The notes under the pieces are model-generated. The model was not told the origin of the DNA. It worked only from the letters and a program-made list of their open reading frames with translations, and did no database searches. The translations under genes and the position numbers were made by a program. Shown here piece by piece: positions 10,381 to 58,435 of a stretch of DNA of 64,000 nt; the stretch's first letter is position 1; each line of letters begins with the position of its first letter. Source of the stretch: a virus; the IMG/VR virus record IMGVR_UViG_3300043185_000079; one strand, 5' to 3'.

Positions 10381-10956
10381 ATGGCAGATGACACCGATTT
10401 CTGGAATGACCTGGTCCTCGGCCAGCAGAGCAAGACGGCCTCCTCTCTCGACGCCTATCTCCAGGCTCGCGAGGCGGAGTCCTGGACCAGCGGTATCCGG
10501 CTCCTCACCGACCGCGGTCGAGAGGCTGCGGCTCTGCAGGTCCCGGTCGAGTCGGGAGCCAGGGTCGCATTCGTCACGAACATCGGCAGCGTGCTCACCT
10601 ACCCGGATCCTCCTGCCCCCGACGCTCTCGGTACCGTGGTGCTGGTGAGGACCGCTGAGGGAGATCAGACGGGGATGGGCGATCTCGTGTTCGTCAAGTT
10701 CGACGACGGGAAATTCCTCGCGATTCACCGCGAACATTTGCGCCGATCCGCGTCCAGCGCCAAGCGAGCGGCTTCGTTTGTGCGCCGAGCGGCGAGCCTG
10801 GGGGACCTCAGCGGTTTCCTCAGGTGGGGTTCCGAGGATTCCACCGATCTCGTTCACAAGGCCACGAGAGACCTGTGGTCGTTCTCGCAGACGGATGACG
10901 GCGATTTCGTGATTACTCGGCTCTTCAACGACACAGGTGCGCCGATCAAGGTCTAG
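10381..10956 (+). CDS. hypothetical (putative virion) protein with KTA/KRA/RRA motifs
   Basis: AGGA RBS; QSKTASS, AKRAAS, RRAAS. Confidence 0.6.
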   Translation: MADDTDFWNDLVLGQQSKTASSLDAYLQAREAESWTSGIRLLTDRGREAAALQVPVESGARVAFVTNIGSVLTYPDPPAPDALGTVVLVRTAEGDQTGMGDLVFVKFDDGKFLAIHREHLRRSASSAKRAASFVRRAASLGDLSGFLRWGSEDSTDLVHKATRDLWSFSQTDDGDFVITRLFNDTGAPIKV

Positions 10957-10985
10957 GGCGCGAAACCCGCCCGGCCCCCTTTCGG

Positions 10986-11000
10986 CGGTGTTTTCGCTAT
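10986..11000 (+). promoter_or_regulatory. CGGT-N8-TAT motif
   Basis: CGGTGTTTTCGCTAT, 24 nt before GTG 11024. Confidence 0.55.
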
Positions 11001-11023
11001 AGGAGGCGGCTGACAAGAACCCC

Positions 11024-11887
11024 GTGTCCTCGCCTGATCCAAAGCGCGTTGCCGAAGCCCATCTTCTCAAGAGGGTCGCGGGCGAGGTCATCTTCAAGAA
11101 AGACCGCGGCGGTGATGTCTCGCAGTGGGCGTACGCCGACCACCATCCGTCAAAACGAGACATTCCTGGCGACTTCAACTACTCGCCATCGCACCAGAAG
11201 CCTCTCGCGAAGGTTCTGCGGTCAACCCTGGCCGCTCTCGGTCATGTGCTCTCCGCCCACAACTCTTTCGCTAAGGTCAAGTCAGCCAGGGTCTCCCCCG
11301 ACGGAAGTCTCGGGGGGCGCGGCTACATCATGAAGATCCACGACATGCGCAAGCAGTACATGAACTGCGTCGAGGCGCTGTCGGCTCTCAGCGACACACT
11401 CTACGACGAGGTCAACGCGCCACACTGGTCTCTCCTGTCGCGTCAAGAGGACACGGTCGACAAGGACACGGTGTCCGCGCTCATTCAGGACTCGGAGAAG
11501 ATCAGGGAGGACCCGCAGGAGTGGGCGGAAGACCAGATCGAGGACGAGTTTGAAGATGACGAGGATGAGAGCAACGAAGAGTTCGACCTTGAGGATGCGG
11601 CGGGACAGGAACTGGATATCGTTGATGACAGCGAGGATGGGTGGACTGTAGACGAGGACGTGGACGAAGAGAACCCGCTGCTTCTCGGTGTGATGGGGAA
11701 GACGGCGAGCGCCCGAGACGTCCGACTCGCACTCCTGCCCCAACGCGTTGCGTTGGACTGGATCGTGGCCCACGAGAACCAGATCCCTGGAGGGGTTTCC
11801 GACAAGAGGCTTCCGACTGACTTCGACCACTTGGTCGAGGACAATCACTACGACAAGCTCGAGACGATCGAGGGAGAGCACACCTGA
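11024..11887 (+). CDS. putative internal head protein with RVA motifs
   Basis: PKRVAEAHLLKRVA at N-terminus; acidic tract; GKTAS and PQRVALDW near C-terminus. Confidence 0.6.
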   Translation: MSSPDPKRVAEAHLLKRVAGEVIFKKDRGGDVSQWAYADHHPSKRDIPGDFNYSPSHQKPLAKVLRSTLAALGHVLSAHNSFAKVKSARVSPDGSLGGRGYIMKIHDMRKQYMNCVEALSALSDTLYDEVNAPHWSLLSRQEDTVDKDTVSALIQDSEKIREDPQEWAEDQIEDEFEDDEDESNEEFDLEDAAGQELDIVDDSEDGWTVDEDVDEENPLLLGVMGKTASARDVRLALLPQRVALDWIVAHENQIPGGVSDKRLPTDFDHLVEDNHYDKLETIEGEHT

Positions 11888-14142
11888 TGCCACGCAAGAA
11901 GGCTGATTCGACTCTCCCCCAAGAGCTGAACGAGAACTGGGGATCCAACTTCATGATGGACGGGTTCTGGCACGACATGGACTACGGGCACGGTCTCCGT
12001 GATTCCATCGGGAAGGACCCAGTGCCACAGCCCTCCACGTCAGGCTTCGCGCACCTCCCCGATGGGGTTATCGTGAGCAACGAGGGACTTGCCGAGTTGG
12101 AGGTTCCGGAGGGTGTCGTGCGCGAAGAAGATGGCGGCATGGATCTCGAGGGGCTCGAGATCGTAGCCAATGTCAATCCAGACCTTGATCGGAGCAACAC
12201 GGGGGTGGTTGATCACTCGTGGTTGGCCGATGCATTTCAAGATCCCGAACGTCTGCCGAATGCCCCGTCCTACAATTCGGTCCTCAACCTCCAGGAAGCA
12301 TGGGGAGATCGAACAGACGGGATCCATCGCGTCGAACTCTATGACCGTGAGGTCACGGACTACGAAGCCGTGACGCAGCGGAAGAAGGACGATGATCCGT
12401 TCCAGGCGGACAAGATTTCGCACATCGTCCGTTCGGCCATGCGGCGCTCGGCAATGGGCCATCCCATCGCTGTCATCCTCGACGATGCCCGAGCACAGGC
12501 CGCGGGTGCGCGCTCCCGGATCGCGCGTTCCCTCCGCGCCGTCGAGCTGGAGCACGGCCTCGTCGGCAACGTCTATGTGCGTGCCTCGGCATACCCGGGT
12601 CTCCATCGCGGACGATGGTCACGAGATCTCGCCAAGGCCGCGAAGAGGGCGCGTTACCTCATCGCGCAGTCCGGTCTCGACTGCACATCGTGCGCCGAGG
12701 CTCTGGGTCTGCGCCTCATCACCGATCCCGCGCAGATCGACTGGAACGCTGCGTACGCGCACTACGCCCCTGGGCTGTCGGCCTCTGGGCGGCTCGACCG
12801 AAACGCCACGATCGATGACAAACGCGAAACCCTGCGTCGCGCTTTTCTTGTCGCCGAAAAGTCGCCGACGATGTACATCGAGCCGGGGAGGGTCCGTCAC
12901 TCGACCCCGAGCGACCGCGTAACCCTGGAAGCTGCTCGTCAAGCTCTGACCGGGCCGGCAGTTCCACGCGCTATCGTGTCGGGCACCTCGAAAGCTCGTC
13001 GAGCGGAGTCGTTGCGCTTGGTTCGGAAACTGGGTGCACTCGTGAAAGGGCGGCTCATCACCCTCGGCGAGGCCGAGGAGCTGGCCCGTTCCCGCGCGCC
13101 CGCCATGGCCAGGATCAGGATGGCGGAGACCCTGGCGGCCCGGACCGCCCGCAGCCAGTACAGTGGGGGCGTCGTGCGGGACTCAAGGGTGGCGATCTCG
13201 GGCGCGGACTTCGCCGCTGACACGGGGAAAGCGCTGAAGCACGAGACACGGGCGAAGGTGGCCTCCGTGTCGGAGGACCGCGAGCGAACCAAGATGCTGG
13301 CGAGGTTTTCGGAGATCGCGGAGGTCTACAGGGGTGCCGAGACCAAGGTGCGCAAGATCGCGGCCGCAGTCAAGGCAGGACGGCGCGGAGCAGACATCAC
13401 GCGCCTCGCCGGGAACCTTCTGAACGAGAACGAGCGTCGGCTCGTTGCCTCGATCCTGGATCCGATTCTCGTCGAGGCTGGGTGCTTCGCCCGAGAGTCC
13501 GCGCAGACCTACCAGGGGCCGACGATTCGTCAAGCAGTCGCGGGCTCGCCGGTGACCGTCGTTTCTCCGGTCGAGGCGCGCGCGGCAGTCCGCTGGGCTG
13601 CCCGCCAGTTGAATGAAGGCGCCGTCGGGAATGATCTCGATCAGCTCCTCGCGCATCGGTTTTCGCCGCCCGTGCTCAAGGCTGCGAGCGCAACCTTGGT
13701 CCAGATCCGCCAGAAGCACGAGGGGCTAGCAGGCCACCTCTACGTCGATGCGAGTGTCTATGCCAGCCCCGCCGGAACGGAGGGGTGTGATGCTGGAGCG
13801 CTCCGTCATCGCACTAACGGTATCCGATACCTGCTGGCGATGGATCGGTGCAAGACATGCGTCTTCAAGAACGCTGACGAGACGTGCCAGAAGTATCGCA
13901 AGCAGATCGTGGCCTCCGTGCCGGTCGAGGATGCGGAAGCGTATCGCCGCAACGTGCTGACCTCCCACGCACGCTCGGATGCCGAAGAAACGGCGGCCCT
14001 GTTCACCGATAGCAGCACGGCCATGTCGAATGTCGTGGCGGAGTTCGGCCTCCACAATGCGTCGCTCGACGAGGTGGAGATTTCGGATACGACGGCTCCT
14101 CCGGCGCTGTCCGATATCCACTTCGGAGGGATCGAACTGTGA
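11887..14142 (+). CDS. large hypothetical (putative virion) protein
   Basis: 751 aa, TGATG coupling; internally duplicated HGLxGxxYVxAS segment (EHGLVGNVYVRASAY / KHEGLAGHLYVDASVY). Confidence 0.65.
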   Translation: MPRKKADSTLPQELNENWGSNFMMDGFWHDMDYGHGLRDSIGKDPVPQPSTSGFAHLPDGVIVSNEGLAELEVPEGVVREEDGGMDLEGLEIVANVNPDLDRSNTGVVDHSWLADAFQDPERLPNAPSYNSVLNLQEAWGDRTDGIHRVELYDREVTDYEAVTQRKKDDDPFQADKISHIVRSAMRRSAMGHPIAVILDDARAQAAGARSRIARSLRAVELEHGLVGNVYVRASAYPGLHRGRWSRDLAKAAKRARYLIAQSGLDCTSCAEALGLRLITDPAQIDWNAAYAHYAPGLSASGRLDRNATIDDKRETLRRAFLVAEKSPTMYIEPGRVRHSTPSDRVTLEAARQALTGPAVPRAIVSGTSKARRAESLRLVRKLGALVKGRLITLGEAEELARSRAPAMARIRMAETLAARTARSQYSGGVVRDSRVAISGADFAADTGKALKHETRAKVASVSEDRERTKMLARFSEIAEVYRGAETKVRKIAAAVKAGRRGADITRLAGNLLNENERRLVASILDPILVEAGCFARESAQTYQGPTIRQAVAGSPVTVVSPVEARAAVRWAARQLNEGAVGNDLDQLLAHRFSPPVLKAASATLVQIRQKHEGLAGHLYVDASVYASPAGTEGCDAGALRHRTNGIRYLLAMDRCKTCVFKNADETCQKYRKQIVASVPVEDAEAYRRNVLTSHARSDAEETAALFTDSSTAMSNVVAEFGLHNASLDEVEISDTTAPPALSDIHFGGIEL

Positions 14143-18177: not shown

Positions 18178-18192
18178 GATGAGGACGAGTAG

Positions 18193-18687
18193 ATGCACGA
18201 GGACGACGACATCCAGCCCGAGAATCTCAAGGCTCCCGAGAAAGAGCCCGATGCGAGTCCTGAACTCGCGAAGATCGAGCGGCAGTCGATCCATGAGGCC
18301 ATCGCATCCCTCAATGATGCCCAGCTTCAAGAGCGGATCGACGCGGAACGGGCGGCCCGCCGTCGAGAGCACGAAGAGAAGACTCGGGTCTTCAAGGTAC
18401 GCAGGACGGAAGAGGCCAGGCGTGCCCGTACACAACGAGTCCGGGCCCTCGTCAGTGCCGAGGAGAAGGTGCAGGCGCACGTTGCCGCCGCCTCGCGGTC
18501 CATCCGGGCCGCTATCCGCGAACTCACGGATCTCCCCCTACCGCGCCACTCGCGGGAGGCGAGGGAACAGAGGCGAGCCATCACCACGCTGGGAACAGCA
18601 CTGGGATCTCTCCGGGCAGCCGGTCGCCGCATGTCCGTGTCCGAAGACGCCGACATTGATCCCGATCTCGATCTTGATGTCGGGTGA
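18193..18687 (+). CDS. coiled-coil hypothetical protein
   Basis: GAGGA RBS; charged helical ORF. Confidence 0.5.
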   Translation: MHEDDDIQPENLKAPEKEPDASPELAKIERQSIHEAIASLNDAQLQERIDAERAARRREHEEKTRVFKVRRTEEARRARTQRVRALVSAEEKVQAHVAAASRSIRAAIRELTDLPLPRHSREAREQRRAITTLGTALGSLRAAGRRMSVSEDADIDPDLDLDVG

Positions 18688-18728: not shown

Positions 18729-20672
18729 ATGCCGGCTGAGGGCACGAAGAACGCCATCGCTGGGTCGGCAAGCCCCTCGTCTCTCAAGAAGAACGACGAC
18801 GAGGTCGTGGTGGGCACGGTCGAGCAGCGAAGAGGACGGCCCGAACGCGTGGGCGTGGACACCATGAGAACGGCATCGGCCGGGAACGCTCAGGTGGCCG
18901 AGGATAGTCGTCGAGGGGTTCAAGTTGGAAAACCTTCCCGTGTTGTCACGGGAACCATGCGTGGCCGGGCTGGTCCTCCCAGCTTCCGTGACAAGGTAGC
19001 GGCGGCATGTGGCCCTGGATCGGGGAGTTTCGGTGGCCTTGGCGGCGCTGGGGGCGTTGTCGGCGGGGGAGGAGGGAGCGGCGGGGGAGGAGGGTTCTCT
19101 GGCAACTTCGGACCGGGCAGTGTCGCGCAGGCCAGTTCGGGCAACTTCTACAGTCCCGAACTCAGCACGGACTTCCTGGAGCTTCCACAGTCTCTCAACG
19201 AACAGTGGAACTACTACAGGTTTTTCTACAACAACGAGCCGTTCGTCGGACAGGCTATCGATCTACACACGGAGCTGCCGCTGTCGAAGGTCCGGCTGGC
19301 TCGCCCGAGGGCTCAGACCCGCGAACTCGCCGATCAGGCTCTCCGGTTTTGCGAGAAGTGGATCAACCGGATCGGACTCCTGCAGCGGCTTATTGAGATT
19401 GTTCACGAGTACTACCTGATCGGCGAGGTGTTCATCTTCTGCGAGGACGCGAACCCGGACATGCCGCAGGAGGTCCGACAGAAGGTGGTGCGCGAGGTCA
19501 AGCCCGACGGCTCCCTGGTCGAGACATGGGTGGACTACGATGACGCCGACGCGCGAGCGGTGCGGTGGATGAAGAAGAACTACAGGGGCTGGACGGCCAT
19601 CCGCGTGCTGCCACCAGAGCAAGTCCACATCGAGACATTCCCCTTCACGAGCCAGGCTCTCATCGAGCTAATTCCTGACGCCAAGACGAGGCATGTCATT
19701 AACATGGCGGACCAGGGCGACGAAAGGGCCTGGCGCATTGTCGAATCCATGGACTCCGCCGTCGTGGATGCCGTGCGCGGTGGCGCGAACATCCCCCTGA
19801 GCACCGATCCGGACGGGGGCTCTTTTGTCCACTACATGGCGAACAAGAAGTCCCAGTATGAGCCCAGGGGCCACAGTATCCTGCAGCGATGTTTGAGGGT
19901 CTTGGTATTTTCTGACAAACTGAGACAGGCTCAGACTCAAATTGCTTCGCGGCACATGACCCCGATCCGTCTCGTCTACGCTGAGGACATGGACGAGACG
20001 GACACGGAGGCGCTGCGCGACCAGATTGATCTCGCCTTGCAGGACCCCGACTACTCGATCGTGACCAACTTCCAGGTCACGTGGGAGGAGATGAACAGTA
20101 ACGGCCGTTTGCTTGAGCTGTCCTCAGAGTACGACCTCATCAACCGCCAGCTCTACGCGGGTCTCGGCGTCACCGAGGCGCTCCTCAACGGCGAGTCGAG
20201 CTATTCCGGCGACCGCATCAACCTGGAAGTCATCAACACGAGGTACATGCTCCTCCGCGAGAACATCCAGAACCTCGTGGAGGAGAACTTCTTCAAGCCC
20301 ATGTGTCGACGCATGGGGTTCGTCGAGGAGGATGAGGACGGCAACCTGGAAGTCATCTACCCTCGCCTGTCCTTCACGCGGCTCGCTCTCCGGGACAACC
20401 AGGACACCTTCGACGCGCTGTTCCAGCTCTACCAGAAGGGCTCGCTGGACGTGGAGACCATCCTGGATCTACTGAACATCGACCCCGTGACCGTGCGCGA
20501 GCGCCTGGAGCGGGATTTTGCGACGTATAACGACGCGAACTTCAACGAGGTTCTTCGGTCGATGTACGGACGAGTCGGTGACCAGATCGTGGAGGGGTCG
20601 GACCTGGTGGAGAGGATCGCCAAGACCCTCGGGCTCGAGTACAAGAAGCCCGAGCAGGCTGGCCGTTTCTAG
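18729..20672 (+). CDS. portal protein with Gly-rich N-terminal extension
   Basis: FYNNEPFVGQAIDLHTELP, PRGHSILQRCL, GLGVTEALLNGE, PRLSF portal-like segments; downstream of TerL. Confidence 0.8.
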   Translation: MPAEGTKNAIAGSASPSSLKKNDDEVVVGTVEQRRGRPERVGVDTMRTASAGNAQVAEDSRRGVQVGKPSRVVTGTMRGRAGPPSFRDKVAAACGPGSGSFGGLGGAGGVVGGGGGSGGGGGFSGNFGPGSVAQASSGNFYSPELSTDFLELPQSLNEQWNYYRFFYNNEPFVGQAIDLHTELPLSKVRLARPRAQTRELADQALRFCEKWINRIGLLQRLIEIVHEYYLIGEVFIFCEDANPDMPQEVRQKVVREVKPDGSLVETWVDYDDADARAVRWMKKNYRGWTAIRVLPPEQVHIETFPFTSQALIELIPDAKTRHVINMADQGDERAWRIVESMDSAVVDAVRGGANIPLSTDPDGGSFVHYMANKKSQYEPRGHSILQRCLRVLVFSDKLRQAQTQIASRHMTPIRLVYAEDMDETDTEALRDQIDLALQDPDYSIVTNFQVTWEEMNSNGRLLELSSEYDLINRQLYAGLGVTEALLNGESSYSGDRINLEVINTRYMLLRENIQNLVEENFFKPMCRRMGFVEEDEDGNLEVIYPRLSFTRLALRDNQDTFDALFQLYQKGSLDVETILDLLNIDPVTVRERLERDFATYNDANFNEVLRSMYGRVGDQIVEGSDLVERIAKTLGLEYKKPEQAGRF

Positions 20673-20694: not shown

Positions 20695-20714
20695 CCGATA
20701 CCGTGGGAGAGACC

Positions 20715-22784
20715 ATGGTGCTCCCATCGATCGATCTCCCGACTCGCGAGAGTATCGGACATCCTGCGGACACCCCGGCCAGGGTCGGAATTCTCGTCCA
20801 CATGGCTCGACCCTCCAGGCGCCGCGAGTACAGCATGTCTCGGTGCATGGGGGAGGGTTGCAAGCGGTCCCCTGAGATCGAGTGCATCTGGGCCGACGGT
20901 CGTGGCCGCGCCTGGTTCTGTGAGCGACACTTCGACGCCTGGGCTGCGAAAGACACGGACGGAGGACTCCCGAAGGCTATCGTCAAGCAGCGCAGGGTTC
21001 CTGACGGTGTGGTGGGCGAAAAGTACGGCGAGTATCCCGAAGCCAAGACGGCTGCGGGGGCCCAGTTCATCGTCGTGTCCGCGAAGGGCCCTGGACAGTG
21101 GCCTACCGACCCCGTCCAAGTCATGTCCCGGGAAAGGGCCCTCGACTACCAGTCCGCGGGTGTCGTGATAGCCGGGTTTCGCACGGAGCGCGAGGCTGAG
21201 GAATTCGCAGACAAGATGCGTGACGCTGCTATCGACGTGACGGCGCCCGACGGGACGATCGTGTTCTCCGGGCGTCTCCTCGACTTCTCCGATCTGGCTC
21301 CGCGCCTCGGACTCAGGTTCGTCGACCGAGGGCGGCTTTTGCAGATCCTGCACCGTCCCACGACGGTGATCGGATCCGGCAGGCGCCAGATGACGGTCAC
21401 GCGCCGCGCGGGCAAGACCGCCAAGGCCACCGGATGCAAGACAGGCGACGGTCACAGCGTTGGGCTGTTCATCCCGCTCCCGCGAGATTTGGCCAAGAAG
21501 TTCCCTTCGCTGGGCGAGAATGACGACTCACCCTCCCATGTGACATTCCTGTACATCGGAGATTTCAAGGGAAAACGGAAGCAGGAGCGGCTCGTCGCCG
21601 TCCTACGAAGCTGCTTGCGTCGTTGGTGGCCCTCCTGTCGGGCGACACTCGGAGACTTGGCCTACTTCGATCACCACGACAAGGATCGCCGCGTGCCTCA
21701 CGTCCAGGTCGACTTCGACAAGGACATGAGTGGATTCAAGCACCGGCTGCGACAGGAACTTCACGAGGCCGGCATTGATGTTGGCGACACGTTCCCCGAG
21801 TACAAGCCCCACGTCACACTCGCTTACATGCCGGGCATGGATAGCGAGTGGGAAGGCCCTGTTCCGAAGGGGTCGTGGGACTTCGACACAGTCGAGATCT
21901 GGGGACTTCCGGAGGTCCACAAGATCAAGCTGGGGCCGTCGATTCACAAGATCTCGGAGGAGTGGGTTCTCCAAGTGATTGCTCGTCGTGTCGCGATGAA
22001 GCATTATGCTGCCGGTTGGCCGGACCGCGGCAGAGTAGCATCGGTATCCGTGAACGCGACGCACAGGCGCAACGTCACCCTCGTCAAGTGGCTATCCGAC
22101 TTGGCGCAACATCTCGGCGTCGCAAGGGACACGTACGTCGTGGGTGGGGCCGTGCGAAATTTCATCCTCGGCGAGCCCATCAAGGACGTGGATGTCGTCA
22201 TCGACACCATCAAGGCCGGCAGGGATTCTGAATGGCTGGCGCAGCAGGTGGCCAAGGCGATCCCGGTCCCGACCAACGTGACAACGAACCAGTACGGAGT
22301 GGCCATTCTCACCGTCAAGGGCGACTGGGTCCTCGACGACGAGAACCTCCGCGGCGAGATCATCGAAATCGCCAACGCGCGCAAGGAGAGCTACGGAGGC
22401 GAGACGGGCAAGGGTTATAAGCCGCACATGGTAGAGCCCGCCACCATCGAGGAGGACCTCAGGCGAAGGGATTTCACGGTTAATACGCTGATGTGGAGGT
22501 TGCTCGACTTGGCACACGGACCCGACCGGGCCGAGGTCGTCGATCTGATGGGATGTGGTCGGCGAGATCTTGAGCAGCGAATACTTCGATGCCCGCAGGA
22601 TCCAGATATCACTTTTTCGGATGATCCGACAAGGATGCTACGTCTGGTGCGGTTCATGTCCAGATACAACATGAAAGTATCTCCCGACGTAGCGGCAGCA
22701 GTGCGTCGCAACGCGCCCAAGCTCAAGAATGCTCCTTGGGAGGCCATCGCTTCGGTCCTGATGCAGACTCTGGAGGGACGGTAG
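20715..22784 (+). CDS. polyprotein: Cys/His module + 2H phosphoesterase + CCA-adding/poly(A) polymerase head
   Basis: Two HxT motifs (SHVTF, PHVTL); YVVGGAVR..KDVD, RRRDFTVN and FSDDPTRMLR; domains separated by KTA/RVA motifs. Confidence 0.85.
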   Translation: MVLPSIDLPTRESIGHPADTPARVGILVHMARPSRRREYSMSRCMGEGCKRSPEIECIWADGRGRAWFCERHFDAWAAKDTDGGLPKAIVKQRRVPDGVVGEKYGEYPEAKTAAGAQFIVVSAKGPGQWPTDPVQVMSRERALDYQSAGVVIAGFRTEREAEEFADKMRDAAIDVTAPDGTIVFSGRLLDFSDLAPRLGLRFVDRGRLLQILHRPTTVIGSGRRQMTVTRRAGKTAKATGCKTGDGHSVGLFIPLPRDLAKKFPSLGENDDSPSHVTFLYIGDFKGKRKQERLVAVLRSCLRRWWPSCRATLGDLAYFDHHDKDRRVPHVQVDFDKDMSGFKHRLRQELHEAGIDVGDTFPEYKPHVTLAYMPGMDSEWEGPVPKGSWDFDTVEIWGLPEVHKIKLGPSIHKISEEWVLQVIARRVAMKHYAAGWPDRGRVASVSVNATHRRNVTLVKWLSDLAQHLGVARDTYVVGGAVRNFILGEPIKDVDVVIDTIKAGRDSEWLAQQVAKAIPVPTNVTTNQYGVAILTVKGDWVLDDENLRGEIIEIANARKESYGGETGKGYKPHMVEPATIEEDLRRRDFTVNTLMWRLLDLAHGPDRAEVVDLMGCGRRDLEQRILRCPQDPDITFSDDPTRMLRLVRFMSRYNMKVSPDVAAAVRRNAPKLKNAPWEAIASVLMQTLEGR

Positions 22785-28740: not shown

Positions 28741-29217
28741 ATGTCATCCAAACCGATCACGAAGGAAGCGGCCCTCAAGGTGTCCCGCCTCCTGGACCAA
28801 GCAGCCACCACGTTCCAGAAGCACCACGTTGCTCTCGGGATCAAGCCGAAGATCGCGAATGACTTCGCACTTCGGTGTGACATCCTCTCCGACCACGTGG
28901 AGAAGCAGGCGGGCATCGACCGTCGCGCGCAGATGGATCCCAAGGAAAACTACACCGAGGATGCTCTGGGCCCGGATGACTTCGACCCAGCCGAGATCGG
29001 CGAGCAGACTCCCGGCGCGCTGCTGCGGAACGAGGACGAGCCCTACATGGACACGTTCAACCAGCAGTGGTTCGATCAGCTTCGCGAAGTTCAACAGACG
29101 GGTCAGTTCTCCAACGCGAAGACCGCCGCGCAGCTCATCAAGCACATGGCCGGCCTCCTCCACGCTCACGGCATCCCTCTCGTCGTCCGCAGGAAGAAGA
29201 GCCCGAAGGTCGCCTGA
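28741..29217 (+). CDS. putative head/core protein with KQA/RRA/KTA motifs
   Basis: AGGAG RBS; VEKQAG, DRRAQ, AKTAA. Confidence 0.65.
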   Translation: MSSKPITKEAALKVSRLLDQAATTFQKHHVALGIKPKIANDFALRCDILSDHVEKQAGIDRRAQMDPKENYTEDALGPDDFDPAEIGEQTPGALLRNEDEPYMDTFNQQWFDQLREVQQTGQFSNAKTAAQLIKHMAGLLHAHGIPLVVRRKKSPKVA

Positions 29218-29274
29218 AGATCGCGACGGTCTGGACTTCCTGACCGTCGTCGTGACGCGCCGACGCGACTCGCT

Positions 29275-29904
29275 ATGAAACGTACAGCAGACGCAGGAAA
29301 CTGGCAGGCCCGCGGACAAGAGTTCGCGGTGGGGCAAGCTGTGCGTCTCGTCAATGGCAGCCCAACCGACGAGGGTCGCGTCACCGCTGTCTGGCCTGGA
29401 ATCGGATGCGTCGATGTGCAGTGGCCACACACGTCGTATCGCCACTTGGTTGAGGATCTCCAGATTGTCAACCCGGGCGAGGACGAGTTCGTCGCGCCCA
29501 TGCACGAGGACGTGCCGGGAGGGCCCCCGTCCTCGGCGTGGGTCTCGCAAGGGGCCCCTCAGACGAACGAGATCACGCACGAGGACCCACGAGTCGAGTT
29601 CGTCCACGACATCGCGGGCAAAGTGGCATCTCAACCGTCTGCGCAGCGGGTGGCGATCGCGTTCGTGAAGCATTCTCTTTACTGGCACGCTCGGGACCGG
29701 AAGTACCGCGTCAGCCGGGACGAACACGCAGAGGGCCGGTATAGATGCCCCACCCGTGGGTGCGAACAGATGTTGCGCCGTGCAACCTACAAGATGGAGA
29801 ACGGATCTCCGATCAAGCTGCTCGCCTGCGGCTCGTGCTTGTTCATGATCCGCGAGCATGACGTACTCTCTGACCACTGCACTCCACATGAGGAGACCTG
29901 CTAG
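29275..29904 (+). CDS. hypothetical protein with RVA motif and C-terminal zinc ribbon
   Basis: MKRTA; GKVASQPSAQRVAIAF; CPTRGC..CGSC. Confidence 0.65.
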   Translation: MKRTADAGNWQARGQEFAVGQAVRLVNGSPTDEGRVTAVWPGIGCVDVQWPHTSYRHLVEDLQIVNPGEDEFVAPMHEDVPGGPPSSAWVSQGAPQTNEITHEDPRVEFVHDIAGKVASQPSAQRVAIAFVKHSLYWHARDRKYRVSRDEHAEGRYRCPTRGCEQMLRRATYKMENGSPIKLLACGSCLFMIREHDVLSDHCTPHEETC

Positions 29905-29905: not shown

Positions 29906-32884
29906 GTGGCGTTCCTCAAGCGAGCCAGCGGGGTCGTCGTTCATCGGGGGTGGTCTCCAGAGAACTGGGGCAACTTCGTCGGCCAGAACAAGGAGCGACT
30001 CGCGAATGGGCCGTACCGAACGGCCGCCGGGGCGCTGAACTTGGTCGCGCAGGCGAGCGAGATCCTCGGCGAAGAGTTCGATCCGAAGAACTTCCTCCTG
30101 ACGCACGCGACGATCGTGGCCTCGGTCGACACGGAGGAGGCCGGGAACGTCAAGCTCGGGTCCGTCGTCGAGGACGGACGCAAGATCCTGCGCAAGTTTG
30201 GCGACTACAGGATCACGCCCGACACCGAGCAGTGGATCAACAACAACCACGACAGCTGGTCTCGCGGGGTCCTGCTCAAGAGCTACCGGACGTTCGTCGG
30301 TGCCCACAACTTCCTCGAGCACTGCCAGCTCGAGCACCTGTCGAAGGGTCGAATCGTCGACGCCGTCGCCCGCGACATCGGACCGTCGATCTACGTCGAC
30401 ATCCTCGTCGCCACCAACCGCAAGCACGCGAGCCTCATCCAGGACATCGAGAACGGCCGGATGGGCACGCTGTCCATGGGGTGCACTTGCGTGCACACGA
30501 CCTGCACGAAGTGCGGGAACGTGGGCCATGATGAGACTGAGCTTTGCTTCCCTCCCGGCACTCGTGTACTGCTTGCCGAAGGCAAGTACCGTCCCATTGA
30601 GGAGATCGTCGAAGGCGATTTCGTGCTCTCTCACACGGGTAGGCGTCGTGCTGTTGTTAGGACCATGCGCCGTGAGTACGAGGGCAACTTGGTGGTCCTC
30701 GACGTAGAGGGCGTTCCGGTCTCGGTGAAGGCAACGCCCAAGCATCCGTTTTGGACGCTGCGACCAGCACAGATCTGTGCTTGCGGCTGCGGTCAACCCC
30801 TTCGACGGACCGTCGAGCACGAACGGGGATCCGCCAAGGCATTCAAGCGTCGATTTTTGCCACACCATGCCGGCTCTCTACACAACGTAGTATCGATGGA
30901 CGCGTACCAGCGCATCTTCGATACCGAGATGGAGTTCGTCGAGGCACAGGATCTCCGTCGAGGAGATTACTTGGCCTTCCCGATTCCGCGCGACGTCGAG
31001 AACAGCGCGGATGCCACAGTCAACCGGGCTCGTTTGATCGGGTTCTTTCTGGCCGAAGGCAGTTTCATTAAGCGAGACGGCAGGAGGGTCGGCATCGCCT
31101 TTTCGTTTGGGTACCACGAGTACGACACCCTTGCGGCCGAGGTCCAGAGGCTTCTGAACCTTGAGTTTGGACGAGACGAGCGTCGGCAAGATTGTCTTGA
31201 CTGGCAGGATTTGGTTGCTCGCAATCACACGCGGGCAATCAAAAGGCGCGCCAACAGCCGCGCCGTCCCTCCAGAGGTGACGTGTCCGACATGTGCTGCG
31301 CCCTCGCAGTACGCCTACAATGCCCGTTTCAAGGCGGGGCACGACGACTGTTATCAGTGCAAGGTATGTGGGCGCTCGTGGATCCACCAAGCGGACAGAT
31401 CCCTTCACGCCACACGATACAAGTGTCCGATTGACAGACCTGAGACTGGGTCCGTCGAAGTCCGGCTCATGGACGAAGAGGCGGCGGATTTTTTCTACAG
31501 CTACTGCGGCGAATACGCGAACGAGAAGGCGCTGGATCCATCGGTCCTGCGTTGGGCTCCTGATGTCCAGAGACACGTTTTGTTCGGGTGGCTCGGAGGA
31601 GATGGGACCCAGAGTGTGGTTGGTATCCGAGGCAACACGGCTTCCTTCCATCTCCAGAATCAGATGCACATTCTCGCCGCGCGGTGCGGTCTGTATGCCT
31701 ACAGAACGGTCGTGTTCGACGGGAGATCAGGGACCATCGATCAAGTGGTGAACGGTGACGGCTCTGTCACGGCGCGAGATTGCAGAGGCTGGCTTCCGAG
31801 CTTTGGTCTCGTGCTATCTGAGCCGAAGGGGTTCAATGGCGAGGTCCGGTTTTCCGATCGGGAGCCGCGGACCACCCTCACCGAGATGACAGATAGTTAC
31901 AAGCGCGTTGGGGACTGGTTCGTCTATCGGATCCGAGATGTTGGCCGCGAGTCGTACTGCGGAACGGTCCACAATCTGGAAATCTCTGAAGACAACTCCT
32001 ACGTGGTGGACGGCCTAGCTGTTCACAACTGTAATCATGTGCGCTACGAGAAGGGCAACGCGTTCTACGACCAGAACGGAGTCCGCAGGAAGGTCGCCGA
32101 GCTGTGTGGCCACGCCAGCGAGGACCCGACCGGCGGGGTGAACTTCATCGAGGCGAGCTGGGTCGCCGTGCCGGCCTTCGCCGGCGCCGTGATGCGGAAC
32201 ATCTTGCAGCCGGAGGCCGTGAACGTCGCCACGAACGAGCAGGTGCGTAAGGTTCTTGCGTCACCGCCCCCCGAGTGGACTGATACTGATGACCACATAC
32301 AGAAGGCAGCTTCAACGGAAGTTGCCAAAGTGGTGACTCCAGCGCGGCAGCCGAGGACCCAGGTCCACGTTGCTCAGTTCGGTCCGTCCGAGGATGAAAG
32401 CAGCGACGACGCTGCGACCGAGAGTACCGACTCTCTTACCGCGTTGGAGGACGAGATCGAGAAGTATCTTCTCGACAAGGTCAAGAAGCGCATCAAGGAC
32501 AAGCTGAAGGCCGACGTCCAGGAGGAGGCGGCCTCTGAGGGTGAGCTGGCGACGTCTACGGGAGACTCCGTGGTCCACCAAGCCGCTCTTCGCATGGCGT
32601 TCGGCACGGACACGCTCCTGCGAATTGCTGGTTCTGACGTCGAGCTGGTCGACGGGCTCGCACGTCTCGCCGCCTCGCTCGGCATCAAAGTTTCGAGGGA
32701 TCTCTATCGCACAGCACTCCGAGTGGGGCCCGCTCGGAGCCAGGAGTCCCTCGATGGGTACCTCTCCCGTTGTGGAGAAGTACTCGGTCGTCATCCGACG
32801 ACAGGAGAAGCCAAGACCCTTGTACGTCTTGGGCGGATCCTTTCGATGCGGGCCCGCCGCTCCTCCGCACGGGGCGGAGATTGA
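29906..32884 (+). CDS. prohead (capsid maturation) protease with intein
   Basis: NFLEH, KGRIVDA, LSMGC and FIEASWVAVPAF HK97/herpes-type protease motifs; position upstream of scaffold and MCP. Confidence 0.8.
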   Translation: MAFLKRASGVVVHRGWSPENWGNFVGQNKERLANGPYRTAAGALNLVAQASEILGEEFDPKNFLLTHATIVASVDTEEAGNVKLGSVVEDGRKILRKFGDYRITPDTEQWINNNHDSWSRGVLLKSYRTFVGAHNFLEHCQLEHLSKGRIVDAVARDIGPSIYVDILVATNRKHASLIQDIENGRMGTLSMGCTCVHTTCTKCGNVGHDETELCFPPGTRVLLAEGKYRPIEEIVEGDFVLSHTGRRRAVVRTMRREYEGNLVVLDVEGVPVSVKATPKHPFWTLRPAQICACGCGQPLRRTVEHERGSAKAFKRRFLPHHAGSLHNVVSMDAYQRIFDTEMEFVEAQDLRRGDYLAFPIPRDVENSADATVNRARLIGFFLAEGSFIKRDGRRVGIAFSFGYHEYDTLAAEVQRLLNLEFGRDERRQDCLDWQDLVARNHTRAIKRRANSRAVPPEVTCPTCAAPSQYAYNARFKAGHDDCYQCKVCGRSWIHQADRSLHATRYKCPIDRPETGSVEVRLMDEEAADFFYSYCGEYANEKALDPSVLRWAPDVQRHVLFGWLGGDGTQSVVGIRGNTASFHLQNQMHILAARCGLYAYRTVVFDGRSGTIDQVVNGDGSVTARDCRGWLPSFGLVLSEPKGFNGEVRFSDREPRTTLTEMTDSYKRVGDWFVYRIRDVGRESYCGTVHNLEISEDNSYVVDGLAVHNCNHVRYEKGNAFYDQNGVRRKVAELCGHASEDPTGGVNFIEASWVAVPAFAGAVMRNILQPEAVNVATNEQVRKVLASPPPEWTDTDDHIQKAASTEVAKVVTPARQPRTQVHVAQFGPSEDESSDDAATESTDSLTALEDEIEKYLLDKVKKRIKDKLKADVQEEAASEGELATSTGDSVVHQAALRMAFGTDTLLRIAGSDVELVDGLARLAASLGIKVSRDLYRTALRVGPARSQESLDGYLSRCGEVLGRHPTTGEAKTLVRLGRILSMRARRSSARGGD
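30545..32029 (+). mobile_element. intein (495 aa) with LAGLIDADG homing endonuclease
   Basis: Starts CFPPGTRV; block B TPKHPF; LIGFFLAEG and LFGWLGGDG; ends VHN followed by Cys+1. Confidence 0.92.
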
Positions 32885-46958: not shown

Positions 46959-46960
46959 CC

Positions 46961-56240: not shown

Positions 56241-56243
56241 TCT

Positions 56244-56258
56244 CGGTTTTCGCTTGAT
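56244..56258 (+). promoter_or_regulatory. CGGT-N8-TAT motif variant
   Basis: CGGTTTTCGCTTGAT, 22 nt before ATG 56280. Confidence 0.5.
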
Positions 56259-56279
56259 GGCCCCCGCACTGGTGAGGCC

Positions 56280-56690
56280 ATGCCACGTTTGCGAAGAGCT
56301 GGAAGCCAGGCAGGGTGGGCTCTGATCTCCGGCGGGGTGAATGCCGCCAGGGTCGACGTTCACCGCCTCCACCAGATCGTGGGGAAGGTTCTGCGTCTCG
56401 TCGAGCAGAGCAAGGATCGCGAGCACATCTATCAGGTCGCAGGTGACGTCATCCTGGGCATCCCCCAGATTCTCGATCGTCTGGAACAGCAGCTCGACGA
56501 GACCGGCTACGCCTTATCAATCATGGGGAAGGACCATCTCAAGGACCGCCTCCCTCTTTCTCGTCGCACGCGAGTGGACGAGACCGTCGAGGGAGCGCCA
56601 GCGTTCAGCGTGTCAATGTTGAAGGACTCGGCACGTCGAGTGGCGGAACGACACATCGCGCGTCGAGTGGATCGACGCGGGAGGTCGTAG
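56280..56690 (+). CDS. putative internal head protein
   Basis: LRRA|GS N-terminus; C-terminal SARRVAERHIARRV. Confidence 0.65.
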   Translation: MPRLRRAGSQAGWALISGGVNAARVDVHRLHQIVGKVLRLVEQSKDREHIYQVAGDVILGIPQILDRLEQQLDETGYALSIMGKDHLKDRLPLSRRTRVDETVEGAPAFSVSMLKDSARRVAERHIARRVDRRGRS

Positions 56691-58435
56691 TGCCCGACTT
56701 CGGGATCCGCAAGCGAGCAATGGCCCAGGACAGCACGGATCCTGTGCCCGAGGACGTCATCCGCGAGGAGATCCGCGCCGCGGCCGAGATTCTCAGGACG
56801 GCTTACCGATCCGGGTGGCAGGAATGGCCCGGGTGGAAGACCGTTGTCGATGAGAAGAGCGAGAAGGGCATCTTCCCGCGCGACACTGAGGACAGCAGCA
56901 CGGAACGGGGACAGAGCAGGCTCGATCATGCGTGGCCTGTCCAGCTTCCGCAGCCTCGGGAGAAGGAACGCGCGTTGCCACTTCCCTCCGACTTCGACAA
57001 GAAACGCGAGAAGCGAATTGGCCCGACTTACTACAACAAGAACCGAAAGGTCCCGTACCGCACACATCCAGAGAAGGGGGACGAGTACGGCCATCCCGTG
57101 AAACTGGATTACAACTATGACAGGCGACGCCAGGAGGTGACCGCCGGGGATACGCGGGAGGAAGACGGATCTCCGGAGGAGCGAGAGGCCGCCGGGTTGT
57201 TTCCCGCCAAGCATCAGCAAAACCAGCGTGGCCAATCGCGTGTCTACTACAAGCAGTGGTACCTGCGTAACCGCGAGCCCATCAAACGCAGGGAGAGAGT
57301 CAAGTACCAGACTAGGCTCAAGCACGATCCGCGCGACAAGCTCCGTCGGAAGTATCGGCGGCTGTACCCCCACAGATACAAGCGGCGAGGACTCGGGCCG
57401 TCGACGCCCGCCGAGCGATCTCGAGAGTGGCGCGAGGAGAAGGCAAAAGAGCGACAAGCCTCGGTGTATCACGCAGGGCTTAAGGCGCTGGCGAGCGCCA
57501 TGGAGATCCTTGGGATCGACCGAGTTGCTGCGAACTGGCCCGTTGACTGGGGGACACACTACAAGAAGGTCGAGCCGCCCGAACAACTTGACCAGAACCA
57601 TCCACCAGCACAGCCGCGCAGCACGACGCCGCGCAGCGATCCGTCCAAACAGAAGGGGGAATCTCTCCGTGCACCCGATCTCGACCGCAAGCACCAAAAG
57701 GGCTTGAAGTGGCAGATCGAGCCCAGGGCTCCCGGGGGCGCCTACCCGATCCGCGAGGTGAACAACCCGGGGAATGGCTCGGGCAAGGTCATCCCGATGT
57801 GGGGAGACTTCGTCAACAACACGCAACAGATGCCGGACGGGCGGCAGGACCGGTATGTCCGAAACGATAACTTCGATGTGAAGACGGCCGCCACGCTCGG
57901 TGAAATCCTTGCCCGCGTCGACAGGAAAATCCGAGCGCGTGCCGTCGGCCTCGATCCCCAGCTTCAGCGGACCGACACGAAGAATTGGATCTGGACGTGG
58001 CGTGTTGGGAAGCACGCGGTCAAGGTTCAGGCGTTCAAGCGCGGCACCGCGTCGAACTTCGACAAGGTGAATCTCAGGGTCTCGTGTAGCTGCCCGTTCT
58101 GGCAGTGGTGGGGTCCCGAGCATTGGGGGAAACGGGACGACTACCTGCGCGGGGAACCCCGTGGCACGGCAACCCCCCCAATGATTCGCGATCCTTTCCA
58201 CTGGCGGCCGGTGTGCAAGCACGCCTATGCCGTTCTCCGTCGTTCGCAGAAATTCTTCGTGAGGCCGGAGAAGTCGCCTCTACGCCATCTGGCTCGGTTT
58301 TCAGCCGATAGTCCCGAGTCGGTCGTGATCGAGTGTTTGCCCACGCCTTCGCCAGAGCAAGTAGCTCTTGCCGCGGTCACGCGCGAGATCGGTCAGAGGG
58401 TCGCCCGCAGGTATCTTGGCGAGGAGGGGGTCTGA
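56690..58435 (+). CDS. SWIM zinc-finger protein with RVA/KTA motifs
   Basis: VSCSCPFW..VCKH SWIM motif; VKTAA precedes that domain; C-terminal GQRVARRYL. Confidence 0.7.
   Translation: MPDFGIRKRAMAQDSTDPVPEDVIREEIRAAAEILRTAYRSGWQEWPGWKTVVDEKSEKGIFPRDTEDSSTERGQSRLDHAWPVQLPQPREKERALPLPSDFDKKREKRIGPTYYNKNRKVPYRTHPEKGDEYGHPVKLDYNYDRRRQEVTAGDTREEDGSPEEREAAGLFPAKHQQNQRGQSRVYYKQWYLRNREPIKRRERVKYQTRLKHDPRDKLRRKYRRLYPHRYKRRGLGPSTPAERSREWREEKAKERQASVYHAGLKALASAMEILGIDRVAANWPVDWGTHYKKVEPPEQLDQNHPPAQPRSTTPRSDPSKQKGESLRAPDLDRKHQKGLKWQIEPRAPGGAYPIREVNNPGNGSGKVIPMWGDFVNNTQQMPDGRQDRYVRNDNFDVKTAATLGEILARVDRKIRARAVGLDPQLQRTDTKNWIWTWRVGKHAVKVQAFKRGTASNFDKVNLRVSCSCPFWQWWGPEHWGKRDDYLRGEPRGTATPPMIRDPFHWRPVCKHAYAVLRRSQKFFVRPEKSPLRHLARFSADSPESVVIECLPTPSPEQVALAAVTREIGQRVARRYLGEEGV

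What the first reader, a model, noticed from the sequence alone, without database searches (positions are those of the whole stretch)
10381..58435. [K/R]-x-A junctions at domain boundaries: predicted prohead-protease cleavage code
Seen: KTA/RTA/KQA/KAA/RVA/KMA-type triplets, usually followed by S/A/G, cluster in the scaffold (QKKAS, GKAAA, GKTAT, EKMAS, EKEAS, PKTAG, PKAAS, TKTAS), in the protease itself (LKRAS, QKAAS) and in the portal extension (MRTAS, DKVAA). They also sit just before folded domains: KQA|Ntn-hydrolase, RTA|TopoIB, KTA|2H region, RVA|CCA enzyme, KTA|SWIM region. Established: T4 gp21 and phiKZ gp175 process many head proteins at short motifs ending in Glu, while herpes assemblin (same fold) cuts Ala-Ser. 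Inference: the protease at 29906 cuts after K/R-x-A and releases cargo enzymes inside the capsid.
Basis: partly seen in the sequence, partly recalled or inferred. Interest (0 to 1): 0.85.

Follow-up and report, generated by a model that had tools for sequence, protein, structure and literature searches.

The report
Predicted capsid-protease cutting motif, basic-x-Ala
In this huge phage and hundreds of relatives, head-assembly proteins carry many conserved Lys/Arg-x-Ala triplets where a capsid maturation protease would be expected to cut, so this is very probably that enzyme's so far undescribed, herpesvirus-like cutting signal, though no cleavage has been shown yet.

Summary
[KR]-x-A followed by S/A/G/T occurs 12 times in the scaffold against 2.2 expected under a local shuffle. 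The same 3-5x excess is seen in all 31 non-redundant scaffold orthologues.

The motif sits at conserved positions while P2 varies:
- both disordered flanks of the protease catalytic domain (28/28, including phage G and Tunturi_5)
- three sites in the scaffold C-tail
- the portal N-extension
- the MCP N-arm
- the junctions before the TopoIB, CCA, SWIM and Ntn-hydrolase modules

In a complete 38%-GC relative, the two most enriched of 312 ORFs are the scaffold and the orthologue of window 11887-14142. Non-head genes in the window show no excess. The same statistic recovers T4's known L/I-x-E motif in gp22 and gp21.

The register (cut after Ala) is supported by the invariant Ntn nucleophile Cys, which follows [KR]-x-[A/S/G] in 112 of 113 homologues.

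Best reading: the intein-interrupted, gp21/assemblin-like prohead protease cuts at P3 basic, P2 any, P1 Ala.

Not shown:
- actual cleavage
- that the cargo enzymes are packaged
- any linker-versus-core preference

About 20 kb of the stated range is non-virion. I found no publication of this motif. This is a new variant of a known kind.

The parts
29906..32884 (+). Prohead (head maturation) protease gene. The probable start is GTG 29906, by alignment with orthologues that begin MAFL; the ORF itself opens at ATG 29858. The exteins give a protein of about 497 aa: N-propeptide, catalytic domain, acidic linker and a helical C-domain.
   Evidence: PHROG head maturation protease, E 1.3e-5. Orthologue alignment. 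AF2 model of an intein-less orthologue matches T4 gp21 best (Z 6.3) and VZV protease (Z 5.0).
30545..32029 (+). LAGLIDADG intein of 495 aa. It is inserted between ...DETEL and the +1 Cys of CNH, two residues before an invariant His.
   Evidence: Pfam Hint, Intein_splicing and LAGLIDADG_3 hits. Orthologues lack the insert and read straight through. Coordinates.
30017..30028 (+). Predicted N-terminal self-processing site of the protease, RTA|A. A second upstream triplet, KRA|S, lies at 29918-29929.
   Evidence: R-[TVI]-A-[SAG] at the aligned position in 28/28 family members, including Tunturi_5 and phage G. The site lies in a segment with pLDDT about 30.
32303..32314 (+). Predicted C-terminal release site of the protease, KAA|S, between the catalytic domain and the acidic linker.
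   Evidence: A [KR]xA lies 13-48 residues after the EASWV motif in 28/28 members. The segment is disordered in the model.
32932..34365 (+). Scaffolding protein of 477 aa, very acidic, with 12 [KR]xA[SAGT] sites. P3-P1' codons start at 32977, 33247, 33310, 33331, 33502, 33799, 34027, 34078, 34165, 34180, 34228 and 34276.
   Evidence: 12 observed vs 2.2 expected. An unbiased pair scan ranks K.A, R.A and AS among the top pairs. Coordinates.
34276..34287 (+). Scaffold C-tail site KTA|S, 26 aa from the C-terminus, just before the conserved ELxKLWExAPDVS tail. It is analogous to the herpesvirus M site.
   Evidence: Present in nearly all of about 50 distinct orthologue tails, with P2 = T/V/E/Q/G/S. 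Two further conserved sites lie upstream.
18993..19004 (+). Portal N-extension site KVA|A, in portal gene 18729-20672.
   Evidence: K-V-A lies 15-45 aa before the conserved portal core in the window, L003, L076 and G004. Phage G has KMA|S at this place.
35319..35330 (+). Possible N-terminal propeptide site of the major capsid protein, KLA|A, in MCP gene 35244-36122.
   Evidence: K-L-A is kept in LR745208, Tunturi_5, Rhodococcus E3 and ScoobyDoobyDoo MCPs (27-89% identity), but not in phage G.
23389..28425 (+). 1678-aa multi-enzyme protein: N-domain, Ntn hydrolase, TopoIB and a coiled coil. Junction triplets: KQA|C at 23776-23787, RTA|R at 24667-24678, RVA|A at 25480-25491, RMA|T at 26050-26061 and KVA|H at 26239-26250.
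   Evidence: Pfam Topoisom_I, E 7e-27. Pfam AAT matched in 6/6 Ntn homologues. Junction conservation.
20703..22784 (+). 2H phosphoesterase plus CCA/poly(A)-polymerase protein next to the portal. Junction RVA|S lies at 22032-22043.
   Evidence: Pfam PolyA_pol E 1.8e-18 and 2_5_RNA_ligase2 E 4.8e-7. [KR]xA lies directly before the CCA domain in 4/4 orthologues.
28741..29904 (+). Two small head-module proteins (28741-29217 and 29275-29904) with conserved sites KQA|G (28903-28914) and KVA|S (29620-29631).
   Evidence: The same position carries KKA|G, KTA|S and RVA|S in LR745208 paralogues and orthologues. 28741-29217 has 3 sites vs 0.4 expected.
10381..14142 (+). Three ORFs upstream of the terminase: 10381-10956, 11024-11887 and 11887-14142. 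The first and third are enriched in the motif and are candidate internal or core head proteins.
   Evidence: 10381-10956 has 7 vs 0.6; 11887-14142 has 23 [KR]xA vs 14.1. The G004 orthologue of 11887-14142 is the most enriched of 312 ORFs, at 13 vs 2.0.
57881..57892 (+). KTA|A junction before the SWIM zinc-finger module of ORF 56690-58435.
   Evidence: Pfam SWIM, E 1e-4. LR745208 has RVA|A here. The free-standing G004 version starts M-R-K-T-S|A-T-L.

Best explanation
[K/R]-x-Ala, usually followed by Ser/Ala/Gly/Thr, is the recognition motif of this phage's prohead serine protease, with P3 basic, P2 free, P1 Ala and the cut after Ala.

Proposed sequence of events (all steps inferred):
1. The intein splices out of the protease.
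2. The protease is co-assembled into the prohead through its C-terminal helical domain.
3. It frees itself at conserved sites on both sides of its catalytic domain.
4. It chops the acidic scaffold at about 12 sites.
5. It severs the last ~26 residues of the scaffold, the presumed capsid-binding tail, much as the herpesvirus M site does.
6. It trims the portal N-extension and probably a 28-residue N-arm of the capsid protein.
7. It separates the modules of the head-module multi-enzyme proteins (Ntn hydrolase, TopoIB, CCA enzyme, SWIM module). For the Ntn hydrolase this would expose the nucleophile Cys.

Shown here: the motif, its enrichment, its positional conservation and the protease family assignment. 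Inferred: cleavage itself, the scissile bond, and packaging of the enzymes.
For: **Enrichment**
- The window scaffold has 12 sites vs 2.2 expected, and all 31 non-redundant orthologues show a 3-5x excess under a local shuffle.
- An unbiased pair scan puts K.A, R.A and AS at the top. P1' Ser is 4.2x over background.
- Window head proteins have 51 vs 25 expected; non-head proteins have 38 vs 37.
- In the complete relative G004 (38% GC), the top two of 312 ORFs are the orthologue of 11887-14142 and the scaffold.

**Controls**
- The same statistic finds T4's known [LI]xE motif in gp22 (16 vs 5.7) and gp21 (7 vs 2.7), with no [KR]xA excess there.
- The window scaffold shows no xE-type excess.

**Positional conservation with free P2**
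- Protease N and C flanks, 28/28, including phage G and Tunturi_5.
- Three scaffold tail sites.
- The portal.
- The TopoIB, CCA and SWIM junctions.
- In the AF2 model the protease flank sites lie in low-confidence, presumably disordered segments.

**Register**
- The invariant Ntn Cys directly follows [KR]x[A/S/G] in 112/113 homologues.

**Family logic**
- T4 ([IL]xE, PMC12991175), phiKZ ([SAG]xE, PMC13282480), SPN3US (AxE, PMC10052503) and herpesvirus assemblin (VQA-S, YLQA-T, PMC4498786) all read P3-x-P1.
- Distant actinophage relatives (ScoobyDoobyDoo gp90, Rhodococcus E3 gp77) fuse protease and scaffold. They carry the triplet right after the protease domain and 17-20 aa from the C-terminus.
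Against: - There is no experimental N-terminus or cleavage product for any member. I could not read the phage G capsid paper, and the phage G proteomics searched fully tryptic peptides only.
- Phage G gp21, the scaffold candidate by position, has no such site, and the phage G MCP lacks the K of KLA.
- The motif is also enriched in segments predicted as ordered, so there is no linker preference.
- Some conserved copies lie inside the helical C-domain of the protease.
- In the large enzyme proteins the overall count is not above expectation: 3 vs 5.4 in the TopoIB protein.
- The fold match to gp21 is modest (Z 6.3), and profile comparison with T4 gp21 was not significant.
- Ntn hydrolases normally process themselves, so the Cys register argument is not independent proof.
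Confidence: 0.72

Rival explanations
1. The triplets are a short linear binding or targeting motif rather than a cleavage site. It could serve, for example, scaffold-capsid or cargo-scaffold contacts, or a capsid-targeting peptide.
For: - Extended repeats such as RVA-A-R-Y/F-L recur several times within the TopoIB proteins of relatives.
- Conserved copies sit inside predicted helices of the protease C-domain.
- There is no linker preference.
Against: - Only P3 and P1 are constrained, and P2 varies freely.
- The sites flank the protease's own catalytic domain in disordered segments.
- The triplet sits exactly before the Ntn nucleophile.
- The pattern matches the P3-x-P1 grammar of this protease fold.
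- T4's true cleavage motif shows the same statistical signature.
Confidence: 0.12
2. The sites are cleaved, but not as proposed. Either another enzyme does it (the papain-like peptidase at 48937-49707, or a host protease), or the cut falls after the basic residue, as in trypsin or at the HK97 Lys-Ser site.
For: - A Peptidase_C1-like gene lies in the window.
- From memory, HK97 gp5 is cut after Lys103.
- The motif alone does not fix the scissile bond.
Against: - The invariant residue is Ala, and the residue after it is small.
- The Ntn Cys must be the new N-terminus, and it follows Ala/Ser/Gly.
- The sites flank the prohead protease itself in all 28 family members, including phages in whose fetched head regions no papain-like gene appeared. 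I did not search whole genomes of those phages for one.
- The gp21 and assemblin families read P3-x-P1.
Confidence: 0.08
3. Composition, low complexity or shared descent explains the pattern, and it has no function.
For: - The genome has 62% GC with Ala 9.6% and Arg 9.3%, so [KR]xA is common (278 in the window, 245 expected).
- The scaffold has Lys/Ala-rich stretches.
- The orthologues are not independent samples.
Against: - The excess survives a 20-residue local shuffle in 31/31 orthologues.
- It holds in a 38%-GC relative where Ala is scarce.
- It is absent from non-head proteins.
- Positions are conserved while the surrounding sequence and P2 diverge.
Confidence: 0.03

Closest known systems
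Herpesvirus assemblin (MEROPS S21) with its R and M sites
   Same: - Ala at P1, a small residue (Ser/Thr) at P1', and P2 free.
- The protease is released from a C-terminal extension by self-cleavage.
- A site a few tens of residues from the scaffold C-terminus detaches the scaffold from the capsid protein (PMC4498786).
- Actinophage relatives even fuse protease and scaffold in one chain.
- The VZV protease is among the fold matches (Z 5.0).
   Different: - P3 is basic here, not Val/Leu/Ile.
- Protease and scaffold are separate genes in this window.
- The scaffold carries about 12 sites instead of one.
- There is no detectable sequence similarity.
- An intein interrupts the gene.
T4 gp21 (S77) and the giant-phage proteases phiKZ gp175 and SPN3US gp245
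   Same: - T4 gp21 is the best structural match (5jbl, Z 6.3, 124 residues; it also holds the top three Foldseek rows).
- The gene sits in the same place in the head module.
- The motif has the same P3-x-P1 grammar.
- The protease processes itself at both ends.
- The scaffold or core is degraded, and many internal head proteins are processed (PMC12991175, PMC13282480, PMC10052503).
   Different: Those enzymes require Glu at P1 ([IL]xE, [SAG]xE, AxE). Here neither [LI]xE nor [SAG]xE is enriched in the scaffold, and P1 is Ala with a basic P3.
HK97 gp4-type prohead protease (S78)
   Same: It has the same fold class and role, and its C-terminal part targets the enzyme into the prohead (from my knowledge of Duda et al. 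2013).
   Different: HK97 removes a delta domain fused to the capsid protein and has no separate scaffold. Its mapped site is Lys-Ser (from memory). No Pfam S78 match was found here.

Membership tests
gp21/assemblin-fold prohead serine proteases | Catalytic domain with the assemblin/gp21 fold | tested here: inconclusive
   The AF2 model of intein-less orthologue L020 has pLDDT 80-90 over residues 35-247. T4 gp21 (5jbl) is the top hit of 48,161 chains at Z 6.3, rmsd 3.4, 124 aligned residues. VZV protease scores Z 5.0. Foldseek's top three rows are 5jbl chains, E 0.011. Z is below 8 and does not stand clear of unrelated rows.
gp21/assemblin-fold prohead serine proteases | Sequence-profile match to a head maturation protease family | tested here: met
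   phrog_18299 head maturation protease, E 1.3e-5, on residues 122-228. The homologues are annotated head maturation or prohead protease in Tunturi_5, Stormageddon and Rhodococcus E3. Pfam gives no protease family, and hhalign against T4 gp21 is not significant.
gp21/assemblin-fold prohead serine proteases | His...Ser...His catalytic residues | tested here: inconclusive
   H131, S182 (in SMGC) and H208 are invariant in 20 sequences, with spacing of 51 and 26 residues. From memory, T4 gp21 has His85, Ser140 and His161. No residue-level structural alignment was available.
gp21/assemblin-fold prohead serine proteases | Gene placed between portal and scaffold/major capsid genes | tested here: met
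   The order is portal 18729, protease 29906, scaffold 32932, decoration 34553, MCP 35244. Tunturi_5 and LR745208 have the same order.
Assemblin-type substrate code (hydrophobic-x-Ala|Ser, R and M sites) | Ala at P1 with a small P1' | tested here: met
   Ala is invariant in the motif, and P1' is S/A/G/T with Ser at 4.2x background. The cut position is supported by the Ntn Cys following [KR]x[ASG] in 112/113 homologues. This is computational evidence only.
Assemblin-type substrate code (hydrophobic-x-Ala|Ser, R and M sites) | Hydrophobic P3 (Val/Leu/Ile) | tested here: not met
   P3 is K or R at the conserved sites. [VLI]xA is only weakly enriched in the scaffold, at 11 vs 7.1, p 0.06.
Assemblin-type substrate code (hydrophobic-x-Ala|Ser, R and M sites) | Site near the scaffold C-terminus that removes the capsid-binding tail | tested here: met
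   A conserved [KR]xA|[SAG] lies 20-26 aa from the C-terminus in about 50 orthologues, in Tunturi_5, and in the E3 and ScoobyDoobyDoo fusions. Whether the tail binds the capsid was not tested.
Glu-specific T4/phiKZ-type code | Enrichment of [LI]xE or [SAG]xE in scaffold and protease | tested here: not met
   The window scaffold has [LI]xE 5 vs 5.0 and [SAG]xE 12 vs 14.4. T4 gp22 as positive control has 16 vs 5.7.
Ntn hydrolase, Pfam AAT / peptidase C45-like (module at 23785-24648) | Profile match and an invariant nucleophile as first residue of the domain | tested here: met
   PF03417 is matched by 6/6 aligned homologues, best E 1.3e-10. The window copy alone scores E 0.011, below the cutoff. 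Cys1 and the K-x-R-D-R block are invariant. The single-sequence AF2 model failed, with pLDDT 39.

The most novel reading that the evidence does not exclude
A very large and widespread phage lineage shares an Ala-specific, basic-P3 maturation protease. The lineage includes phage G, Tunturi_5, hundreds of 300-600 kb environmental phages, and cluster C mycobacteriophages, Gordonia phages and Rhodococcus phages. Its substrate logic mirrors herpesvirus assemblin, with R-like and M-like sites. Its motif has been co-opted as a modular 'polyprotein grammar': interchangeable enzyme modules (TopoIB, CCA-adding enzyme, 2H esterase, SWIM module, an Ntn-hydrolase zymogen) are strung together, packaged, and then cut apart and activated inside the capsid for injection.
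Probability: 0.4. Interest if true: 0.8.

Novelty: new variant of a known kind. Interest (0 to 1): 0.62.

Why it matters
**Annotation.** If confirmed, the motif gives a simple rule for predicting mature virion proteins, propeptides and packaged enzyme cargo across a globally abundant clade of huge phages (573 capsid relatives in IMG/VR). It would also apply to well-studied cultured phages such as phage G and cluster C mycobacteriophages. Most head-module genes in these phages are unannotated.

**Evolution.** It would add a third specificity class (basic-x-Ala) to the Glu-specific phage proteases. That class shares P1 Ala and the R-site/M-site logic with herpesviruses, which bears on the evolutionary link between tailed-phage and herpesvirus capsid maturation.

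**Cargo delivery.** Conserved junction sites between shuffled enzyme modules suggest capsid-delivered enzymes are built as cleavable polyproteins. That would be a design principle useful for engineering phage cargo.

**Regulation.** The intein next to the catalytic His would make head maturation depend on protein splicing.

Tried and rejected
- **DNA similarity.** Megablast of 29000-44000 against phage records found no match.
- **Protease family by sequence.** Pfam gave no protease family for either extein. A profile of 20 proteases against PDB sequences gave nothing relevant. hhalign of that profile against T4 gp21 was not significant; it aligned only a 25-column stretch.
- **Ntn module structure.** The single-sequence AlphaFold model was useless (pLDDT 39), so no fold search was run on it. 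A profile of the Ntn module against PDB sequences gave only chance hits.
- **Linker versus core.** A FoldIndex-type disorder score showed no clear difference, so I do not claim a linker preference.
- **Whole genome.** No whole genome is held for the window. I used the complete relative G004 instead.
- **Literature.** Searches and reads found no report of a basic-x-Ala motif for any phage protease. The phage G capsid paper (PMC7316594) is not held, so absence of prior knowledge is not proven.
- **ORF 18179-18739.** It looked weakly enriched, but its Arg/Ser/Pro-rich translation suggests it is not a real gene, so I dropped it.
- **2H junction.** The triplets before the 2H domain (RRA|G, KTA|K) could not be tested, because in relatives the 2H module starts at its own Met.

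Full report
**What the window is**

All genes lie on the + strand of a 62%-GC phage sequence. The head module contains, in order:
- terminase (16024-17916)
- portal (18729-20672)
- a 2H-phosphoesterase/CCA-polymerase protein (20703-22784)
- a 1678-aa protein containing a topoisomerase IB domain (23389-28425)
- two small ORFs
- a protease gene interrupted by a LAGLIDADG intein (29906-32884; intein 30545-32029)
- a very acidic scaffold (32932-34365)
- a decoration protein
- a 292-aa HK97-fold major capsid protein (35244-36122)

The capsid protein is 89% identical to that of the uncultured 485-kb phage LR745208, 48% to Tunturiibacter phage Tunturi_5 and 39% to phage G gp27. IMG/VR holds 573 relatives, on contigs of up to 618 kb. 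The genes from 36220 to about 56240 are not structural: homing endonucleases, PAPS reductase, SET protein, RNase HII, deacetylase, papain-like peptidase and RtcB.

All quoted pentapeptides are present. Enrichment in the window:
- Against composition-preserving shuffles, the scaffold has 11 [KR]xA[SAG] where 1.4 are expected, and 6 KxAS where 0.2 are expected.
- 10381-10956 has 7 vs 0.6, 28741-29217 has 3 vs 0.4, and the protease has 7 vs 2.7. The 14 genes upstream of 10381 show nothing.
- With a stricter null that shuffles within 20-residue blocks, the scaffold has 12 [KR]xA[SAGT] vs 2.2.

Every one of 31 non-redundant scaffold orthologues taken from the related loci shows the same 3-5-fold excess. 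An unbiased scan of all residue pairs at spacings 1-3 puts R.A, A-S and K.A among the top five. The remaining top pairs come from one conserved Cys-containing block. Around the triplet, Ser is 4.2-fold over background at P1' and P2 is unconstrained.

**Controls**

Head-module proteins of the window carry 51 sites against about 25 expected. The 45 other proteins carry 38 against 37.

In a complete relative with very different composition (G004, 312 kb, 38% GC), I called 312 ORFs and ranked them by excess. The first is the orthologue of window 11887-14142 (13 vs 2.0) and the second is the scaffold (9 vs 2.1). The orthologue of 10381-10956 is also in the top seven.

As a positive control, the same statistic recovers the experimentally known T4 motif: [LI]xE is 16 vs 5.7 in gp22 and 7 vs 2.7 in gp21, with no [KR]xA excess. 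Conversely, the window scaffold has no [LI]xE or [SAG]xE excess.

**Positional conservation**

I aligned 26 clade proteases with those of Tunturi_5 and phage G. Three things stand out.
- R-[TVI]-A-[SAG] sits about 10 residues before the catalytic domain in all 28.
- At least one [KR]xA sits 13-48 residues after the end of the domain in all 28.
- In the AlphaFold model of an intein-less orthologue, both sites lie in segments with pLDDT below 50 that flank a confident domain at residues 35-247.

The scaffold tail carries three sites in almost all of about 50 distinct orthologues. The last is 20-26 residues from the C-terminus, just before a conserved ELSKLWESAPDVS-like tail. P3 alternates between K and R, and P2 is any of T, V, E, Q, G, S or A.

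The portal has K-V-A 15-45 residues before its conserved core, and phage G has K-M-A|S there. The capsid protein has K-L-A at residue 26-28. This is kept in LR745208, Tunturi_5 and even the 27%-identical actinophage capsid proteins, but not in phage G.

**Domain junctions**

Relatives combine different modules with the TopoIB domain: 2H esterase, a HAD-like domain, or Ntn hydrolase plus an N-terminal domain. Despite this, conserved triplets recur:
- A [KR]xA precedes the TopoIB domain in 7 of 9.
- A [KR]xA|T-K-[ST]..E-[KR]-E-D-E block follows it in 9 of 9.
- A third site follows DLSLNFK in most.
- The CCA domain is preceded by RVA|S, RVA|S, KSA|M and KLA|V in four orthologues.
- The SWIM module is preceded by KTA|A, RVA|A and, in a free-standing G004 version, M-R-K-T-S|A.
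- The junction before the 2H domain could not be tested.

The overall number of triplets in these large proteins is not above expectation. For them the evidence is conservation, not enrichment.

**Register**

An earlier first-reader note pointed out that the Ntn-hydrolase Cys follows KQA. I tested this.
- The module matches Pfam AAT (peptidase C45-like Ntn hydrolases) in 6 of 6 homologues, best E 1.3e-10. The window copy alone is sub-threshold.
- Among 113 database homologues with at least three residues before the invariant Cys, P3 is K/R in 112. P1 is Ala in 89, Ser in 19 and Gly in 4. P2 is free.
- Most are free-standing proteins with a five-residue M-x-[KR]-x-[AS] propeptide.

An Ntn nucleophile must be the N-terminal residue, so the bond after Ala/Ser is the one broken. 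Ntn hydrolases usually do this themselves, so this supports the register but does not prove that the prohead protease is responsible.

**The enzyme**

- The gene matches a PHROG head-maturation-protease family.
- Its homologues are annotated as such in Tunturi_5, Gordonia and Rhodococcus phages.
- Its model's best solved-structure match is T4 gp21 (Z 6.3, 124 residues, rmsd 3.4), with varicella-zoster protease also listed (Z 5.0). The Z-scores are modest.
- His, Ser (in SMGC) and His are invariant, with gp21-like spacing.
- The intein sits two residues before the second His, so splicing must precede activity.

**Mechanistic reading**

Proteases of this fold read P3-x-P1:
- T4: [IL]-x-E (PMC12991175)
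- phiKZ: [SAG]-x-E (PMC13282480)
- SPN3US: A-x-E (PMC10052503)
- herpesvirus assemblin: V-Q-A|S and Y-L-Q-A|T (PMC4498786)

[KR]-x-A fits this grammar with a new P3/P1 pair. The layout also parallels herpesviruses: release of the protease from a C-terminal extension, plus a site that removes the scaffold's C-terminal tail.

Distant family members make the parallel closer. ScoobyDoobyDoo gp90 and Rhodococcus E3 gp77 are protease-scaffold fusions. They carry K-[TQ]-A right after the protease domain and R-[TI]-A 17-20 residues from the C-terminus.

**Caveats**

- No cleavage has been observed in any member.
- Phage G gp21 has no site.
- A linker preference was not detected.
- Packaging of the enzyme modules is inferred from gene position only.

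I rate the cleavage-motif explanation at about 0.72. It is a new specificity variant of a known kind of system. It is directly testable in cultured phages.

Noticed in passing
30545-32029: The protease intein (495 aa, LAGLIDADG) is inserted two residues before an invariant, probably catalytic His. Relatives have protease ORFs of 918-1809 aa (L007, L015, L032, L046, L081), which suggests one or several inteins at this or other sites, while most are intein-free at 450-540 aa.
   Followed up: partly
35244-36122 and loci L004-L083: The capsid protein is 89-98% identical across 80 fetched relatives whose genomes range from 38% to 62% GC. Their scaffolds and proteases are only 35-60% identical. This is unusually strong purifying selection on one protein.
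   Followed up: no
23389-28425; L071, L032, L034, L069, L022, L015, L056, L029: The TopoIB module is fused to different partners in different relatives: 2H esterase, a HAD-like domain, Ntn hydrolase, and long coiled coils. The extended peptide RVA-A-R-Y/F-L recurs several times per protein and again at the extreme C-terminus. It may be more than a cleavage site.
   Followed up: partly
P0001-P0120 (homologues of 23785-24648): The viral Ntn-hydrolase family (2023 database hits) is mostly free-standing. It is often fused to ChaC/GGCT-like domains (PF04752, PF06094) and almost always has a five-residue M-x-[KR]-x-[AS] propeptide.
   Followed up: partly
L105 6372-10145 (ScoobyDoobyDoo gp90); L106 4857-7544 (Rhodococcus E3 gp77): In cluster C mycobacteriophages and Rhodococcus phage E3, the homologous protease is fused to extra domains and a scaffold-like C-terminus in one 900-1250-aa protein. 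This resembles herpesvirus UL26. gp90 is annotated only as hypothetical.
   Followed up: partly
36220-38129: Two LAGLIDADG-type homing endonuclease ORFs with C-terminal helix-turn-helix regions lie directly after the capsid gene. They overlap each other's ORF calls (36220-37203 and 36978-38129).
   Followed up: no
L096 14632-16669 (G004 154632-156669): Two tandem 310-aa paralogues in relative G004 each carry five [KR]xA[SAG] sites (about 1 expected) and hydrophobic segments. They have no family match and are candidate further protease substrates, possibly ejection proteins.
   Followed up: partly
18179-18739: This ORF translates to an Arg/Ser/Pro-rich sequence typical of an off-frame reading in GC-rich DNA. 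It is probably not a gene.
   Followed up: no
44422-51592: This is a cluster of host-like enzymes: SET-domain protein (44422-45099), RNase HII (46224-46958), polysaccharide deacetylase (47119-47817), papain-like peptidase (48937-49707) and RtcB RNA ligase (50165-51592).
   Followed up: no
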